NCBI GenBank assembly: GCA_963718915.1
Contig: CAVRAI010000013.1
Coordinates: forward strand, 420,001-452,000
DNA from: an uncultured Chloroflexia bacterium
Lineage (GTDB): Bacteria > Chloroflexota > Ktedonobacteria > Ktedonobacterales > JADMIN01
DNA length: 32,000 bases
Direction: 5' to 3'
Below are positions 28,797-32,000 of this stretch, piece after piece. The stretch's first letter is position 1; the number at the start of each line of letters is the position of its first letter. The notes below the pieces were generated by a model that was not told the origin of the DNA, did no database searches, and saw only the letters and a program-made list of their open reading frames with translations. Position numbers and translations under genes: made by a program.

Positions 28797-28805
28797 TGCT
28801 ATAAT
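28797..28805 (+). promoter_or_regulatory. Extended -10 promoter candidate (TGcTATAAT) for the CIS-like operon
   Basis: ccgTGCTATAATggcc. TTGCAT lies 14 nt upstream. It is about 130 nt upstream of the ATG at 28938. Confidence 0.45.
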
Positions 28806-28937
28806 GGCCCTATCCACAAATCGCGTCACCTCCTGGCCATTCTGTGCGTCTTTGTATGGAGATTCCTCAAAGCAGCAAGGTAGAGCAGCCGTCCGCGTGT
28901 AATGGGTTTATCTGGGGTGTTTGAGGGGATGGGCGAG

Positions 28938-29549
28938 ATGAGTAGCCCGCTCAGCATTGCATCAGTCACCAGCGTCATCAAGAGTGTGCTCGAAAACGGC
29001 CTTGTCATGCACGGTGCGACCGCCGTCGTGGGTGAGCTTGCCGTCACCGCGACGCCGCCCGACCGCATCACCACAGGCGCCGACGAGCGCAGCCAGCTCA
29101 ACATCTATCTTTATCGCATCACGCCCAACACCGCCTGGCGCGCGATTTCCACAGGCGCCACGCAGTCGAACGGCGCGCGCGCTGTCCCGCTCTCGCTCGA
29201 CCTGCACTACCTGCTCACCGCATACGGCGAGCGCGACTACCACGCCGAGACGCTGCTGGGCAGCGCCATGGAGCTACTGCACGAGACACCCGTGTTGACC
29301 CACGAGACGATTGCGCCGACGCTGGCATCAATGGCTGAGCATGGCGGGTCGGGCGCGTCAGTTTTCGCGGATGTGATCGACTTCATTGACCGTATCACCC
29401 TTTCTCCTGAATTCTTAAGTATGGAAGACCTGACCAAACTCTGGTCCGCGTTACAGGCGCGCTTTCGGCTGTCGGCGACCTATCAGGCATCCATCCTGAT
29501 GCGTGCCGCGCCAGATGTTGCCGTGCCGTCACGGAGCAGTCGCACCTGA
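28938..29549 (+). CDS. DUF4255 (Pvc16/Afp16 N-terminal domain) protein, tail-terminator-like component of contractile injection systems
   Basis: Family pattern: IASVTSVIKSVLENGL ... VTATPPD ... LNIYLYRITPNTAWRA ... LSLDLHYLLTAYGE ... AETLLGSAMELLHETPVL. The ATG at 28938 follows GAGGGGA at 8-nt spacing. Confidence 0.78.
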   Translation: MSSPLSIASVTSVIKSVLENGLVMHGATAVVGELAVTATPPDRITTGADERSQLNIYLYRITPNTAWRAISTGATQSNGARAVPLSLDLHYLLTAYGERDYHAETLLGSAMELLHETPVLTHETIAPTLASMAEHGGSGASVFADVIDFIDRITLSPEFLSMEDLTKLWSALQARFRLSATYQASILMRAAPDVAVPSRSSRT

Positions 29550-29580
29550 TGATGTAGCGATTCAAGCAGGTGGATTCCAA

Positions 29581-31590
29581 ATGTGCGCAGTCAAGCGGCA
29601 ACCGCAACAGACGTGGCAGAGCGCCAACCAGCGATATCTCATGGCGTCGCTGGATCGGGTGCGCTTCGCCCTGGAACGGCATGCGGTACGCCGCCGAGCC
29701 ACGGATGTTACTGATGCAGACAAAGACGACCTGCTCAATGTTGAGCCTGCGCTTCCACTCTTGCCGAAGATGGTCGGCGATGCGCCCGCCGCCATACAGC
29801 GCCTCTGCGAGGTCTTCGGCCTCTCAGCTTTCGAGCGCGACACGCTGCTCCTCTGCGCGGGGATCGAGCTGGATGGCCGATTTGCCGCCCTCTGCGCCAG
29901 CGCCCAGGGCGATCCGACGCGCCCCTGGCCAACATTCGGGATGGCGCTCGCCGCGCTCGACGAGGCCCACTGGAGCGCGCTCTTGCCCCAGGCGCCGCTC
30001 CGCCGCTGGCGATTGGTCGAGCCAGGCCAGGGAGGCGTTATCACGACCGCGCCCCTACGAATCGATGAATCGGTGCTGCATTTCCTTACCGGACTCGAGT
30101 CGCCTGACGAGCGACTGGCAGGCATCATTGTGCCAGTGGATGCCCCAGGCGAGATCGTGCCATCGCACCGCGCGCTGGCCCAGCGTATTGCCGCCGCGTG
30201 GCAGCGGGCGCAACCCGCGACGCTCCCGCTGGTGCAGTTATGTGGCGATGATTCAGCGGGCAAGCGTTCTATTGCCGCCACTGCCTGCCGCCAGAGCGGC
30301 CTGCAACTACTTGCCGTTGCGGCGGATCTTCTGCCCACCGCGCCAACCGACCTGACTGCCCTGCTGCGGTTGATCGAGCGCGAGCTGCTGCTGAGGCAGA
30401 GCGCGCTGCTGATCGAGTGTGACGACGCCGAGAGCGCCGAACTGGCACGGAGCGCCGCGATCACACGGGCCTGCGAGCAGATTCGCGCGCCGTTGCTGCT
30501 GGCGACTCGCGAGCGCCGCCGCCTGCCTCATCGCAGCGCCATGACCATCGAAGTCGCGCGCCCAACCACCCAGGAACAGCGCGTCGTCTGGCAGAATTCC
30601 CTCGGCAGCGATGCCGCTGCGCTCAACGGGCATCTGGATCTGCTGGTATCGCAGTTTACGCTTGACACAACCGCCATCCGCTCAGCCTGTGCCGAGGCGC
30701 AGGGCATGCGCGCCGCAACCCCGGAGACAACGCTTGATCTGGCGCTGTGGGATGCCTGCCGAGAACAGGCGCGGCCCGCATTGGAGGCGCTGGCGCAACG
30801 GATCGAGCCAATCGCGGCCTGGGATGACCTGGTGTTACCGGATATCCAGCGTCAGACACTGCATGAAGTCGCCGCGCACGTGCGCCAGCGGGCGACCGTC
30901 TACGAATCATGGGGATTCGCCACGCATGGCAGCCGCGGGCTGGGTATCAGTGCGCTTTTCGCGGGCGCCAGCGGTACCGGTAAGACACTCGCCGCCGAGG
31001 TGCTGGCGCATGAACTACGCCTCGACCTCTACCGCATTGATCTCTCGTCGGTGGTCAGCAAGTACATCGGCGAGACCGAGAAGAACCTGCGCCGGGTCTT
31101 CGATGCCGCGGAGGAGGGCGGCGCCATTCTGCTCTTCGACGAAGCAGACGCGCTCTTTGGCAAACGCAGCGAGGTCAAGGATAGTCATGACCGCTACGCC
31201 AATATCGAGGTCAGCTACCTCTTGCAGCGGATGGAGGCCTACCAAGGGCTGGCGATTCTGACAACTAATCTGCGCAGCGCGCTCGATACCGCGTTCCTCC
31301 GGCGCATCCGTTTCATCGTTCAGTTTCCCTTCCCCGACGCCACCCAGCGACAGGAGATCTGGCGGCGCATCTTCCCGGCTGCCACACCAACAGACCGCCT
31401 CGATATCACCCAACTGGCGCGGCTCAACGTCGCGGGCGGCAATATTCGCAATATCGCGCTCAACGCCGCGTTCCTGGCGGCCAACGCTGGACAACCAGTG
31501 GGTATGGCGCATCTCTTACGGGCCAGCCGCAGCGAGTATGCCAAACTGGAGAAGCCGCTCACCGAGGCGGAGATCGGGGGCTGGCTATGA
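29581..31590 (+). CDS. AAA+ ATPase of the contractile-injection-system type (Afp15/Pvc15-like)
   Basis: C-terminal AAA+ module: Walker A GASGTGKT (30964-30987), Walker B ILLFDEADALFGKRS, HDRYANIEVSYLLQRME, ILTTNL...AFLRRIRFIVQFPFP. The long N-terminal region (NQRYLMASLDRVRFALE..., FGLSAFERDTLLLCAG) is typical of these ATPases. I prefer the ATG at 29581 (after AGGTGG) to the track start at 29503, which overlaps the previous gene. Confidence 0.88.
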   Translation: MCAVKRQPQQTWQSANQRYLMASLDRVRFALERHAVRRRATDVTDADKDDLLNVEPALPLLPKMVGDAPAAIQRLCEVFGLSAFERDTLLLCAGIELDGRFAALCASAQGDPTRPWPTFGMALAALDEAHWSALLPQAPLRRWRLVEPGQGGVITTAPLRIDESVLHFLTGLESPDERLAGIIVPVDAPGEIVPSHRALAQRIAAAWQRAQPATLPLVQLCGDDSAGKRSIAATACRQSGLQLLAVAADLLPTAPTDLTALLRLIERELLLRQSALLIECDDAESAELARSAAITRACEQIRAPLLLATRERRRLPHRSAMTIEVARPTTQEQRVVWQNSLGSDAAALNGHLDLLVSQFTLDTTAIRSACAEAQGMRAATPETTLDLALWDACREQARPALEALAQRIEPIAAWDDLVLPDIQRQTLHEVAAHVRQRATVYESWGFATHGSRGLGISALFAGASGTGKTLAAEVLAHELRLDLYRIDLSSVVSKYIGETEKNLRRVFDAAEEGGAILLFDEADALFGKRSEVKDSHDRYANIEVSYLLQRMEAYQGLAILTTNLRSALDTAFLRRIRFIVQFPFPDATQRQEIWRRIFPAATPTDRLDITQLARLNVAGGNIRNIALNAAFLAANAGQPVGMAHLLRASRSEYAKLEKPLTEAEIGGWL

Positions 31591-31618
31591 GCCGAACCAC
31601 AGGAGCGTGGAGCGAGCC

Positions 31619-32000
31619 ATGCTGAACGAGATACACGCGGCGCTACAACGGCTCATCTGGGAGTATGGGCGTATCAGTCCCGACGAGGTGGATATCTTGT
31701 TCGAGGCGCCTACCCGCGAGCGCATTGACCGTCTGGTGCGCCCGACCGTCAGTCTGTTTCTCTTCGACCTCGTCGAGAATACCGAGATGCGCCAGAGTAG
31801 CTTCCCGGTCACGCGCGCCAGCGACCATGCCGAGCGACGAATGCCACCGCGGCGGGTCGATTTGCGCTACATGGTCAGCGCGCTCACCAGCGAGATCGAG
31901 GATGAGCACAGGTTGCTCTGGCGTGTTCTGGCGACACTCCTGAAGTATCCGCAGATGCCCGACGATCTGTTGCCAGAAGAGTTGCGTGGAAGCGAATTCC
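31619..32000 (+). CDS. Second DUF4255 (Pvc16_N-like) protein, 5' partial (continues beyond the window)
   Basis: My own translation from the ATG at 31619: MLNEIHAALQRLIWEYGRISPDEVDILFEAPTRERIDRLVRPTVSLFLFDLVENTEMRQ...RVDLRYMVSALTSEIEDEHRLLWRVLATLLKYPQMP. It shows the same LxLFLYxh ... hDLxYhh[ST]A ... LL pattern as 28938..29549. It is absent from the ORF track because there is no stop in the window. GGAG lies 6 nt upstream. Confidence 0.7.
   Translation, partial: MLNEIHAALQRLIWEYGRISPDEVDILFEAPTRERIDRLVRPTVSLFLFDLVENTEMRQSSFPVTRASDHAERRMPPRRVDLRYMVSALTSEIEDEHRLLWRVLATLLKYPQMPDDLLPEELRGSEF

What the first reader, a model, noticed from the sequence alone, without database searches (positions are those of the whole stretch)
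28797..32000. 5' edge of a contractile-injection-system (eCIS / phage-tail-like) locus: DUF4255 - AAA+ ATPase - DUF4255
Three consecutive plus-strand genes lie behind a TGcTATAAT promoter candidate. The first is a DUF4255 protein (LNIYLYRITPN ... LSLDLHYLLTAYGE). The second is a 669-aa ATPase with a C-terminal AAA+ module (GASGTGKT; LLFDEADALFGKRS; AFLRRIRFIVQFPFP). The third is a second DUF4255 protein that runs off the window. DUF4255 is the N-terminal domain of the Afp16/Pvc16 tail terminator, and this ATPase type corresponds to Afp15/Pvc15. Together they are hallmark genes of extracellular or cytoplasmic contractile injection systems (Afp, PVC, MAC, Streptomyces CIS, cyanobacterial tCIS). 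Sheath, tube, baseplate and spike genes would be expected just beyond position 32000. If the host is a filamentous monoderm, a Streptomyces-like intracellular role in cell death or development is plausible, and the adjacent TIR-TPR gene makes the locus more interesting. Only the first 3 kb or so is visible, so the system class cannot be assigned here.
Basis: partly seen in the sequence, partly recalled or inferred. Interest (0 to 1): 0.7.

Follow-up and report, generated by a model that had tools for sequence, protein, structure and literature searches.

The report
Start of a phage-tail-like injection locus
The last 3.2 kb of the window is the promoter-proximal end of a phage-tail-like contractile injection system in a Ktedonobacterales (Chloroflexota) chromosome, most similar to the Streptomyces system that fires inside the cell and kills it under stress; it is a real but already known kind of machine with a few unusual accessories.

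Summary
Behind a conserved TGcTATAAT extended -10 (28797-28805) lie three genes:
- a 203-aa Pvc16_N/DUF4255 protein (28938-29549);
- a 669-aa Afp15/Pvc15-type AAA+ ATPase (29581-31590);
- a second DUF4255 protein cut by the window end (31619-32000).

All three are under purifying selection.

Two Ktedonobacterales MAGs are syntenic with the window at 84-88% nt identity. In them the third gene is followed by sheath, two tubes, a DUF4157 protein, tube initiator, VgrG, PAAR, gp25 and baseplate J-like and Cis12-like proteins.

Sheath, baseplate and the second DUF4255 match the solved Streptomyces coelicolor cytoplasmic CIS (E 6e-168, 8e-148, 9e-24). No tail fibre is recognisable. A Streptomyces-like intracellular, stress-triggered cell-death role is therefore the best guess, but it is inferred.

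Lineage-specific features:
- There are two cap-fold paralogues flanking the ATPase. Only the second is the Cis16 orthologue.
- In relatives, an FHA domain is fused to the baseplate wedge, next to a membrane Ser/Thr kinase.
- The TIR-TPR gene is an optional accessory at the 5' edge. It is absent from the two closest relatives but present at the same spot in another.

Verdict: a new member of a known kind, of moderate interest.

The parts
27768..28703 (+). TIR-TPR gene (311 aa; start may be 27792). An optional accessory at the 5' edge of the cluster, not a core CIS gene.
   Evidence: Pfam TIR_2 4e-20 plus TPRs. PADLOC gives TIR-type hits only (ThsB-like, SAVED-TIR), with no partner gene. GC is 0.51 against 0.58-0.67 around it. 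The gene is absent from syntenic L081 and L084. Its orthologue in L090 is also directly upstream of the short DUF4255 gene, in a different flanking context.
28797..28805 (+). Extended -10 promoter element TGcTATAAT. A conserved CTTGCA lies 14 nt upstream, at 28779-28784.
   Evidence: Two occurrences in the window against 0.22 expected. Conserved as GTG(C/G)TATAAT in L081, L084 and L083. Homology to relatives begins a few bases upstream of it, at 28794. No canonical -35 at 16-18 nt. Function is inferred.
28806..28937 (+). Conserved 5' leader of about 130 nt, ending in a GAGGGG Shine-Dalgarno.
   Evidence: Long invariant blocks across four loci. The 22-codon ORF inside it is broken by indels in relatives. 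The consensus fold has almost no covariation support. No Rfam match.
28938..29549 (+). Gene 1: short (203 aa) DUF4255/Pvc16_N protein with a tail-terminator (cap) fold. It is a paralogue of the Cis16 cap, not its orthologue.
   Evidence: Pfam 1.1e-38. The AF2 model (pLDDT 72, pTM 0.71) has the six solved CIS cap proteins as its top six Foldseek hits. No sequence-level PDB hit. The family of about 200-aa proteins is conserved down to 50% identity, always as the first gene before the ATPase in the five loci inspected. dN/dS 0.10.
29581..31590 (+). Gene 2: Afp15/Pvc15/Cis15-type AAA+ ATPase (669 aa). Winged-helix N domain at nt 29788-30123. Degenerate D1 with GDDSAGKR (30244-30267) and LLIECDD (30406-30426). 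Active D2 at nt 30955-31329, with Walker A 30964-30987, pore loop KYIGE 31060-31074, Walker B 31129-31149 and FLRR 31294-31305.
   Evidence: Pfam PF22977 plus PF00004. Motifs. D2 is the p97/Cdc48 type. 7997 homologues were scored, and all 120 listed have the same two-domain plan. 54 of 80 loci have CIS structural genes nearby. dN/dS 0.11.
31619..32000 (+). Gene 3 (first 127 codons; runs off the window): Cis16-type cap / tail terminator. The full-length orthologues (272 aa) add a C-terminal CarboxypepD_reg Ig-like domain.
   Evidence: Pfam Pvc16_N 1.6e-23. The window fragment against S. coelicolor Cis16 (PDB 9GTS chain 0A) gives E 3e-22. The full-length orthologue gives 9e-24. It is 95-96% identical to L081/L084. 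dN/dS 0.05.

Best explanation
Positions 28797-32000 are the promoter and first three genes of a chromosomal contractile injection system (CIS) cluster of about 17 genes in a Ktedonobacterales bacterium. The cluster belongs to, or sits next to, the Streptomyces CIS-Sc / Chloroflexota lineage (subtype IId in the literature).

Proposed working, with each step marked as shown or inferred:

1. Transcription starts at a conserved extended -10 and runs through a conserved leader. Conservation is shown; function is inferred.

2. Gene 3 encodes the Cis16-type cap. A hexamer of it terminates the tube and sheath. Homology to the solved Cis16 cap is shown; the role here is inferred.

3. Gene 2 encodes a Pvc15/Cis15-type AAA+ unfoldase-like hexamer. 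It is not part of the particle. It prepares or loads cargo and is needed for biological activity. This is shown for PVC and S. coelicolor and inferred here.

4. Gene 1 encodes a second, short cap-fold protein that always travels with the ATPase. Most likely it is either a second ring of a two-piece cap (as Alg16A/Alg16B in AlgoCIS) or a cap-like docking partner for the ATPase at the open tube end. The fold and the linkage are shown; the role is a guess.

5. Downstream genes are seen only in orthologous loci. They build a sheath-tube-spike-baseplate particle without recognisable tail fibres.

6. The particle most likely stays in the cytoplasm of the hypha and fires on stress, killing the producing compartment, as in Streptomyces. 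This is inferred from relatedness, the lack of fibres and the monoderm mycelial host.

My confidence is about 0.9 that this is a CIS cluster edge and about 0.55 that its mode of action is cytoplasmic.
For: Domains and context:
- Of 80 loci with ATPase relatives, 54 contain CIS structural genes and 55 have a DUF4255 gene directly upstream.

Synteny:
- The window shares 13 kb of synteny with Ktedonobacterales MAG DASUHD010000175.1 at 84-88% nt identity.
- The full downstream cluster is seen in that MAG and in a second MAG.

Matches of the orthologous proteins to the solved S. coelicolor/S. venezuelae CIS:
- Sheath: E 6e-168, over the full length.
- Cis11 baseplate: 7.7e-148.
- Cis12 C-terminal half: 7e-20.
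- Cis16 cap: 9e-24, and 3e-22 for the window's own fragment.

Other evidence:
- Gene 1 has the cap fold.
- All three genes are under purifying selection.

Literature:
- Pvc16_N plus an AAA+ ATPase distinguish eCIS from phage tails, and sco4259 is needed for cell death but not for particle formation (PMC10020575).
- A Cis16 hexamer forms the cap (PMC12237407).
- Pvc15 loads cargo (PMC11495950).
- Chloroflexota, including a Ktedonobacteria strain, assemble IId-type intracellular CIS (PMC12998442).
Against: - The window stops at 32000 and the source genome was not found in any collection. The structural genes are therefore inferred from relatives, not seen.
- Mode of action cannot be read from sequence. 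The authors of PMC12998442 warn of exactly this.
- No formal phylogeny against dbeCIS reference lineages was made.
- The ATPase and gene 1 are most similar to those of a different cluster architecture (sheath-tube-...-long DUF4255-ATPase-...-VgrG). The 5' module may therefore have a different history from the structural genes.
- No CisA-like adaptor was identified by homology.
Confidence: 0.8

Rival explanations
1. The same CIS particle acts extracellularly as a classical eCIS. It is released by lysis of the producer and injects DUF4157-linked toxins into other bacteria or eukaryotes.
For: Relatives of this lineage carry toxin-like cargo between the ATPase and the cap gene. One example is a 1165-aa DUF4157 + bacterial RNase A protein in L083. 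DUF4157 proteins occupy the same slot in L087 and L088. eCIS-associated toxins of this type kill E. coli or yeast (PMC8213781), and a TIR-domain eCIS toxin is known (EAT15, PMC11297309). The S. coelicolor particles were first described as eCIS (PMC10020575).
Against: No tail-fibre (Afp13-like) gene is recognisable in the orthologous cluster. The closest solved system and the related Chloroflexota systems are intracellular, and their extended form is unstable on lysis (PMC10066040, PMC12998442). A thick monoderm wall is a barrier to release without lysis.
Confidence: 0.25
2. In this particular genome the cluster is a truncated remnant. The three genes seen are all that remains, for example after a rearrangement beyond 32000.
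For: Nothing beyond 32000 can be read. The source genome is absent from the collections.
Against: The three genes are intact and under purifying selection, with dN/dS 0.05-0.12. Two relatives at 88% nt identity have the complete cluster in the same chromosomal position. The window end is arbitrary, not a contig feature.
Confidence: 0.05
3. A prophage tail, a tailocin (R-pyocin-like) module, or a T6SS.
For: Sheath, tube, gp25 and VgrG-like genes are shared by all contractile systems. Phage terminators share the fold of gene 1 (ranks 7-47).
Against: The Pvc16_N terminator together with the dedicated AAA+ ATPase is the signature that separates CIS from phage tails (PMC10020575). No capsid, portal, terminase or lysis genes occur in the window or in the flanks of the orthologous cluster. 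There is no TssB/C or ClpV. The top structural matches are CIS caps, not phage terminators.
Confidence: 0.02
4. The TIR-TPR gene is a functional part of the system: an NADase effector, or a sensor that couples to CIS-mediated cell death.
For: Its only full-length relative in JGI metagenome contigs (L090) is also directly 5' of an orthologous gene 1, although the upstream flank is different there. A standalone TIR gene lies 400 nt downstream of the ATPase in the Nostoc locus L001. No terminator is predicted between it and the CIS promoter. A TIR eCIS toxin has precedent (PMC11297309).
Against: It is absent from the two closest relatives and from L083, the sister locus of L090. It was not found in about 86 other CIS loci. 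It has its own TGCTACAAT element and a lower GC content. It lacks DUF4157 or any known loading signal.
Confidence: 0.2

Closest known systems
Streptomyces coelicolor / S. venezuelae cytoplasmic CIS (CIS-Sc, cis1-cis16, SCO4242-4260; dbeCIS subtype IId)
   Same: Cis16-type cap (window gene 3). Cis15-type ATPase next to a DUF4255 gene at the 5' end of the cluster. In orthologous loci: a sheath alignable over its full length (E 6e-168), Cis11 (8e-148), the Cis12 core, two tube genes, VgrG, gp25, no tail fibre, and a cargo slot between the ATPase and the sheath operon. The host is a mycelial monoderm.
   Different: Here a second, short cap-fold DUF4255 gene precedes the ATPase, and the Cis16 orthologue sits after it, just before the sheath. 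In S. coelicolor the cap is reported as Cis16 alone, encoded at the cluster edge next to the ATPase. The Cis16 orthologue here carries an extra Ig-like (CarboxypepD_reg) domain. Cis12 carries an N-terminal FHA domain and is followed by a membrane Ser/Thr kinase. No CisA or Sco4256-4258-type effectors were identified.
Chloroflexota/Deinococcota intracellular CIS (Roseiflexus castenholzii, Thermogemmatispora carboxidivorans; Gaisin et al. 2026, PMC12998442)
   Same: Same phylum and, for Thermogemmatispora, the same class (Ktedonobacteria). These are IId-type clusters related to Streptomyces, with one ATPase and a cap gene. Particles were seen free in the cytoplasm.
   Different: Those are extremophiles. 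The present lineage comes from mesophilic soil-type MAGs and metagenomes. I could not compare sequences directly, and a double DUF4255 or an FHA-wedge is not mentioned in that paper.
Afp (Serratia) and PVC (Photorhabdus) eCIS: Afp15/Pvc15 and Afp16/Pvc16
   Same: The same two hallmark families. The ATPase shares Pvc15's N-domain / degenerate D1 / active D2 plan. Gene 1's model matches the N-terminal domains of Pvc16 and Afp16.
   Different: Afp and PVC have a single two-domain cap of about 295 aa, encoded at the 3' end after the tape measure and ATPase. They have tail fibres and act extracellularly on insects. Sequence similarity of the caps is undetectable without profiles or structure.
AlgoCIS (Algoriphagus machipongonensis) two-piece cap, Alg16A + Alg16B
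   Same: A short single-domain cap protein (Alg16A, 197 aa) works together with a second, two-domain cap-module protein. Gene 1's model matches Alg16A (Foldseek E 3e-6, TM 0.61). This is a precedent for two proteins forming the cap module.
   Different: AlgoCIS is subtype Ib and extracellular. There is no evidence that gene 3's product plays the Alg16B role. In CIS-Sc its orthologue is the whole cap.
Common 'sheath-tube-...-long DUF4255-ATPase-...-VgrG-gp25' eCIS clusters (e.g. Ktedonobacter racemifer ADVG01000003, many cyanobacteria, Acidobacteriota, some Streptomyces)
   Same: The ATPase (up to 65% identity) and gene 1 (E down to 1e-50 against the N-terminal domain of their DUF4255 protein) find their nearest non-orthologous relatives here. 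The DUF4255 gene is also immediately upstream of the ATPase.
   Different: Those clusters have one long (about 400-450 aa) DUF4255 protein in mid-cluster and no Cis16-like second copy. Their sheaths are much less similar (E about 1e-60 to 1e-80) than the Streptomyces CIS-Sc sheath.

Membership tests
Contractile injection systems of the Afp/PVC/CIS-Sc superfamily (eCIS and relatives) | Tail terminator of the Pvc16_N (PF14065/DUF4255) family | tested here: met
   There are two copies in the window, with E 1.1e-38 and 1.6e-23. The fold of copy 1 matches six solved CIS caps. Copy 2 matches Cis16 at the sequence level.
Contractile injection systems of the Afp/PVC/CIS-Sc superfamily (eCIS and relatives) | Dedicated AAA+ ATPase of the Afp15/Pvc15 type (winged-helix N domain, degenerate D1, active D2), encoded next to the terminator gene | tested here: met
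   PF22977 plus PF00004. Motifs. 54 of 80 loci with relatives contain CIS structural genes, and 55 of 80 have DUF4255 directly upstream.
Contractile injection systems of the Afp/PVC/CIS-Sc superfamily (eCIS and relatives) | Sheath, tube, tube initiator, VgrG/PAAR spike, gp25 and baseplate J-like genes in the same cluster | tested here: inconclusive
   These genes are not in the window, which ends at 32000. All are present directly downstream in two syntenic orthologous loci at 84-88% nt identity and in more distant members of the lineage.
Contractile injection systems of the Afp/PVC/CIS-Sc superfamily (eCIS and relatives) | No phage head, packaging or lysis genes attached | tested here: met
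   The upstream window genes are housekeeping or signalling genes: UvrC, ArgRS, a helicase-nuclease, MurT/GatD, CheA-like, HPPK. The orthologous cluster ends in kinase and zinc-ribbon genes, followed by isochorismatase, NUDIX and GH3.
Streptomyces-type cytoplasmic CIS (CIS-Sc, subtype IId) | Structural proteins (sheath Cis2, Cis11, Cis12, cap Cis16) group with the Streptomyces ones rather than with Afp/PVC/AlgoCIS/tCIS | tested here: met
   Best PDB hits by far are 8bky/9gtp (sheath) at 6e-168, against 2.6e-54 for tCIS and 7e-52 for PVC. Cis11 gives 7.7e-148 against 1e-9 for AlgoCIS. Cis16 gives 9e-24. These figures are for the orthologous loci. Only Cis16 could be tested on the window itself, at 3e-22. 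No tree was built.
Streptomyces-type cytoplasmic CIS (CIS-Sc, subtype IId) | No tail fibre (Afp13) and no conventional tape measure (Afp14) | tested here: inconclusive
   No such gene is recognised by Pfam or NCBIfam in the orthologous cluster. However, a 621-aa DUF4157 protein and 122-aa and 63-aa proteins of unknown function lie in the phage chaperone/tape-measure position.
Streptomyces-type cytoplasmic CIS (CIS-Sc, subtype IId) | Particles free in the cytoplasm that fire on stress and cause death of the producer; requires the membrane adaptor CisA | not testable with these tools
   This needs cryoET and genetics. No CisA sequence was available for comparison. Candidate membrane proteins at the 3' end of the orthologous cluster are a single-pass Ser/Thr kinase-FHA protein and a 2-TM zinc-ribbon protein.
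AlgoCIS-type two-component cap (cap + cap adaptor) | A short single-domain cap protein plus a second two-domain protein that together terminate tube and sheath | tested here: inconclusive
   Two cap-family genes are conserved together in five loci of this lineage. Gene 1 is about 200 aa with the cap fold. Whether both are in the particle is unknown. In CIS-Sc, Cis16 alone forms the cap (PMC12237407).
Type VI secretion system | TssB/TssC sheath, the TssJLM membrane complex and a ClpV recycling ATPase | tested here: not met
   The sheath is Phage_sheath_1 type and the ATPase is the Pvc15 type, not ClpV. No Tss membrane-complex genes occur in the window or the orthologous loci.
Thoeris / other TIR-based anti-phage systems (for the TIR-TPR neighbour) | A TIR protein together with its partner effector (ThsA, SAVED, STING, etc.) in one operon | tested here: not met
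   Only TIR-domain-level hits were found (ThsB-like 8e-11, SAVED-TIR 8e-16, PDC-S66 1e-17). No partner gene is adjacent.

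The most novel reading that the evidence does not exclude
This Ktedonobacterales lineage may be a phospho-regulated variant of the cytoplasmic 'suicide' CIS, with three unusual features.

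- The baseplate wedge protein (Cis12) carries an FHA phosphothreonine-binding domain. It is translationally coupled to a single-pass membrane Ser/Thr kinase that has its own FHA domain. This could tether the baseplate to the membrane and gate firing by phosphorylation, analogous to PpkA/Fha1 in T6SS and functionally replacing CisA.
- The cap is built or loaded through two cap-fold paralogues that bracket the loading ATPase.
- An optional TIR-TPR NADase at the 5' edge serves as a cargo or a co-executioner of cell death.
Probability: 0.2. Interest if true: 0.65.

Novelty: new member of a known kind. Interest (0 to 1): 0.35.

Why it matters
CIS that fire inside their own producer are a recent discovery. 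They were described in Streptomyces in 2023 and in Chloroflexota in 2026, and how they are aimed at the membrane and triggered is still open.

This locus adds a mesophilic Ktedonobacterales member, so by itself it is expected biology.

Its lineage offers three handles on open questions:
- A second cap-fold protein is genetically locked to the cargo-loading ATPase. This bears on where and how cargo enters the tube.
- An FHA-baseplate fusion sits next to a membrane kinase. This bears on how firing is controlled.
- A TIR NADase gene comes and goes at the cluster edge. This is a possible link between CIS-mediated death and NAD depletion.

All three are testable in culturable Ktedonobacteria or by heterologous expression.

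Tried and rejected
1. **Exact look-ups of the source genome.** I searched for gene 1 and the ATPase in the assembly collection and found nothing. An exact 40-mer from the window end also found nothing in metagenome contigs. The source genome could not be extended, so I relied on orthologous loci.

2. **First AF2 model of gene 1.** With 32 sequences it gave pLDDT 52 and was discarded. A 96-sequence alignment gave a usable model.

3. **Split tandem-DUF4255 idea.** I asked whether genes 1 and 3 are the two halves of the long (about 420 aa) DUF4255 proteins seen in other clusters. Rejected: both align to the same N-terminal domain of the long proteins.

4. **TIR-TPR as a one-off insertion.** It is absent in L081 and L084. 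I revised this after finding L090, where an orthologue sits in the same position in another flanking context. No flanking repeats or mobile-element signs were found.

5. **Leader as riboswitch or small ORF.** There is no Rfam hit. The consensus fold has essentially no covariation with four sequences. The 22-codon ORF is not conserved in frame.

6. **Canonical sigma-70 promoter.** No -35/-10 pair passes the scan. Only the extended -10 is supported.

7. **Gene 1 against the PDB by sequence or profile.** No hit. Only the fold comparison worked.

8. **Anti-phage ATPase reading (IetA/IteA).** PADLOC and NCBIfam hits cover only the generic AAA module and fall far below the curated cut-offs (99.7 bits against 510).

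Full report
**What is in the sequence.**

Three plus-strand ORFs fill 28.9-32.0 kb. Pfam assigns them as follows:
- The first is Pvc16_N/DUF4255 (E 1.1e-38).
- The second has a variant winged-helix domain PF22977 (3e-20) plus one AAA module (1e-25).
- The third is again Pvc16_N (1.6e-23). It runs off the window after 127 codons.

The gene just upstream (27768-28703) is TIR_2 plus TPR repeats.

Its motifs are as follows:
- Walker A: GASGTGKT, aa 462-469.
- Pore loop: KYIGE.
- Walker B: LLFDEAD.
- Sensor-1: LTTN.
- Arginine fingers: FLRR.
- Upstream of these lies a degenerate AAA-like region with GDDSAGKR and LLIECDD.

This is the N-domain / inactive D1 / active D2 plan described for Pvc15 (PMC11495950). 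The D2 module is of the p97/Cdc48 type.

Gene 1 most likely starts at 28938 (203 aa), not 28902. The Pfam match begins there, a GAGGGG Shine-Dalgarno precedes it, and one relative has TAG in place of the 28929 ATG.

Against two relatives, the three genes have dN/dS of 0.10, 0.11 and 0.05. They are real, constrained genes.

**Promoter.**

TGCTATAAT lies at 28797-28805. TGNTATAAT occurs twice in 32 kb against 0.22 expected. The other copy also faces a gene start.

Homology between the window and its closest relative resumes at 28794, three bases before the element. The element is kept as GTG(C/G)TATAAT in four loci, including L083, where the DNA further upstream is unrelated.

There is no canonical -35, and the two-hexamer scan finds nothing. 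A conserved CTTGCA lies 14 nt upstream.

The roughly 130-nt leader is strikingly conserved. It has no Rfam match, no covariation support with four sequences and no conserved reading frame.

**Where the window comes from.**

No exact copy of the genes or of the window end is in the collections.

The best ATPase hit (91% identity) is from a Ktedonobacterales MAG. Its contig, DASUHD010000175.1 (L081/L085), aligns with the window at 84-88% nt identity over four blocks. These cover MurT/GatD, a CheA-like hybrid kinase, CheW, a response regulator, a PatA_N protein, HPPK, a lipoprotein-like gene, and then the three genes of the finding.

A second MAG (DATBIB010000147.1, L084) has the same order.

The rest of the window holds housekeeping genes: UvrC, ArgRS, a helicase-nuclease and others. 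There is no tRNA. The setting is therefore chromosomal, not a prophage or plasmid.

**What lies beyond 32000 in the orthologous loci.**

After the second DUF4255 gene the MAGs encode the following:
- a sheath (514 aa);
- a gp19-type tube;
- proteins of 122 and 63 aa with no family;
- a second tube;
- a 621-aa DUF4157/eCIS_core protein;
- a CIS_tube initiator;
- VgrG and PAAR;
- gp25;
- a 663-aa TIGR02243 baseplate protein;
- a 309-aa Cis12-like protein;
- a 906-aa Ser/Thr kinase;
- a 205-aa zinc-ribbon membrane protein.

Unrelated genes follow. No tail fibre or conventional tape measure is recognisable.

**Which kind of CIS.**

Against all solved structures, the orthologous proteins give these matches:
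- The sheath matches the Streptomyces CIS sheaths (8bky/9gtp, 8bl4/9gts) over its whole length at E 6e-168. The Anabaena thylakoid CIS scores 2.6e-54, PVC 7e-52 and AlgoCIS 1.4e-47.
- The 663-aa baseplate protein matches S. coelicolor Cis11 at 7.7e-148.
- The C-terminal half of the 309-aa protein matches Cis12 at 7e-20.
- The second DUF4255 protein matches the Cis16 cap (9GTS chain 0A) at 9e-24. The 127-aa fragment in the window itself scores 3e-22.

The Streptomyces system is the type example of a cytoplasmic CIS of subtype IId. It lacks fibres and a tape measure, floats in the cytoplasm, and mediates stress-induced cell death (PMC10066040, PMC10020575). It needs the membrane protein CisA to fire (PMC12237407).

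IId-type intracellular CIS were recently shown in Chloroflexota, and particles were purified from Thermogemmatispora, a member of Ktedonobacteria (PMC12998442).

The present locus therefore fits an already described kind. I did not build a phylogeny. The same authors caution that mode of action cannot be safely read from sequence, so the cytoplasmic mode is inferred at about 0.55.

**The ATPase clade.**

A scan of one genome per species returned 582 relatives. Of the best 80 loci, 54 contain at least one sheath, tube, VgrG, gp25 or similar homologue within 10 kb. 55 have a DUF4255 gene immediately upstream of the ATPase.

All 120 listed homologues in the large protein collection share the PF22977 + PF00004 plan.

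In S. coelicolor the ATPase (sco4259) is not needed to make particles and is not found in them. It is needed for the cell-death phenotype (PMC10020575). In PVC it stabilises and loads signal-tagged cargo (PMC11495950). I take cargo handling as the likely role here.

**Two different cap-fold genes.**

Genes 1 and 3 both match Pvc16_N but are not detectably similar to each other by pairwise search.

Gene 3 is the Cis16 orthologue. In full-length relatives it carries an added C-terminal CarboxypepD_reg Ig-like domain.

Gene 1 has no sequence or profile hit in the PDB. A first AF2 model was unusable. A second model, from 96 sequences, reached pLDDT 72 and pTM 0.71. Its six best Foldseek matches are exactly the six solved CIS caps (E 4e-8 to 5e-6, TM 0.48-0.61), followed by phage terminators:
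- Anabaena tCIS;
- PlPVC1;
- Cis16;
- Pvc16;
- Alg16A;
- Afp16.

Gene 1's nearest sequence relatives outside its own family are the N-terminal domains of the long (median about 420 aa as maximal ORFs) DUF4255 proteins. These sit directly upstream of the ATPase in the common clusters ordered sheath-tube-...-DUF4255-ATPase-...-VgrG, for example in Ktedonobacter racemifer.

I tested whether those long proteins are fusions of a gene-1-like and a gene-3-like half. They are not: both genes align to the same N-terminal domain.

The order is short DUF4255, ATPase, an optional DUF4157 cargo gene, Cis16-like gene, sheath. It is conserved in five loci, down to about 50-60% identity of gene 1, including a Thermomicrobiales MAG.

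By contrast, the S. coelicolor cap is reported as a Cis16 hexamer alone (PMC12237407).

AlgoCIS gives a precedent for a two-protein cap module: a 197-aa cap, Alg16A, plus the adaptor Alg16B (PMC8894135).

My best guess is that gene 1 is either a second cap ring or a cap-like docking partner of the ATPase at the open tube end. This is a guess.

**The TIR-TPR neighbour.**

In both closest relatives, the 1235 nt that hold this gene are replaced by about 190-330 nt of unrelated spacer. The gene has a lower GC content and its own TGCTACAAT element. I first took it for an unrelated insertion.

I then searched JGI metagenome contigs for relatives. The only full-length one is L090, with a TIR domain about 75% identical by eye. 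It also lies directly upstream of an 88%-identical gene 1. There the upstream flank is the HTH-AAA_16-TPR regulator seen in L083, and L083 itself lacks the TIR gene.

So the gene is present or absent at the same spot in two different flanking contexts. It behaves as an optional accessory of the cluster's 5' edge. It was probably ancestral and lost more than once.

Other points:
- A standalone TIR gene also follows the ATPase in the Nostoc locus L001.
- No TIR gene was found in the other roughly 86 CIS loci.
- PADLOC gives only domain-level TIR hits, with no partner gene.
- A TIR-domain eCIS toxin (EAT15) has been validated elsewhere (PMC11297309).

An effector role is therefore possible but unproven; I put it at about 0.2.

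**Seen in relatives only.**

The Cis12-like wedge protein has an N-terminal FHA domain. It resembles GarA/OdhI and TagH-type FHA domains. S. coelicolor Cis12, at 190 aa, lacks it.

Its stop overlaps the start of a Ser/Thr kinase that has its own FHA domain, one transmembrane helix and an Ig-like C-terminal region.

The pair is kept in a more distant member, L089, where the kinase and the membrane part are separate genes.

This resembles the threonine-phosphorylation control of T6SS and could stand in for CisA. I found no paper in the library that combines eCIS, FHA, kinase and baseplate.

**Verdict.**

The object is a new member of a known kind: a CIS-Sc-like, probably cytoplasmic CIS in Ktedonobacterales. 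It has lineage-specific accessories that are worth a note but do not change the category.

Noticed in passing
L085 12448-16097 (orthologous cluster in MAG DASUHD010000175.1; also L089 12446-16006): The baseplate wedge protein Cis12 carries an N-terminal FHA domain that is absent from S. coelicolor Cis12. It is translationally coupled to a Ser/Thr kinase with its own FHA domain and one transmembrane helix. This looks like a T6SS-style phospho-regulation module and a possible membrane tether for the baseplate.
   Followed up: partly
window 27768-28703; L090 1073-2212; L001 12373-12756: The TIR-TPR gene is present or absent at the same position, just 5' of the CIS promoter, in two different flanking contexts: window against L081/L084, and L090 against L083. 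A standalone TIR gene follows the ATPase in a Nostoc CIS locus.
   Followed up: partly
window 28806-28937: The roughly 130-nt 5' leader has long invariant blocks across four loci (e.g. ATGCGTCTTTGTAtGGAGATTCC and TGGGGTGTTTGAGGGG). It has no Rfam match and no conserved ORF, and its structure is not supported by covariation with the few sequences available.
   Followed up: partly
window 28779-28784 relative to 28800-28805: A conserved CTTGCA motif lies only 13-14 nt upstream of the -10 hexamer in the window, L083, L084 and L090. That is too close for a standard -35. It may be a regulator site or an unusual promoter geometry.
   Followed up: no
L083 9687-13184; L087 12720-14222; L088 10298-12208: There is a variable cargo slot between the ATPase and the Cis16-like gene. 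L083 holds a 1165-aa DUF922 + DUF4157 + bacterial RNase A toxin. L087 and L088 hold other DUF4157 proteins. The slot is empty in the window (28 nt between the genes) and in L081 and L084.
   Followed up: partly
window 8036-8044 (- strand): This is the only other TGCTATAAT in the window. It lies just upstream of the minus-strand ORF 7282-7947, which suggests this extended -10 is a genuine promoter type in this organism.
   Followed up: no
window 18856-26243 (- strand): Upstream of the CIS there is a conserved block: MurT/GatD, a 1059-aa CheA-like hybrid kinase, a CheW-like protein, a response regulator and a PatA_N-domain protein. It is syntenic in both MAGs. A link to the CIS is unknown.
   Followed up: no
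L005 1370-1876 (- strand) and 8327-9679 (+): A cyanobacterial locus (Laspinema) also has two DUF4255 genes. One is a long copy upstream of the ATPase. The other is a separate 168-aa Cis16-like copy (E 7e-18 to Cis16) about 8 kb away. Double cap-family genes are therefore not confined to Chloroflexota.
   Followed up: no
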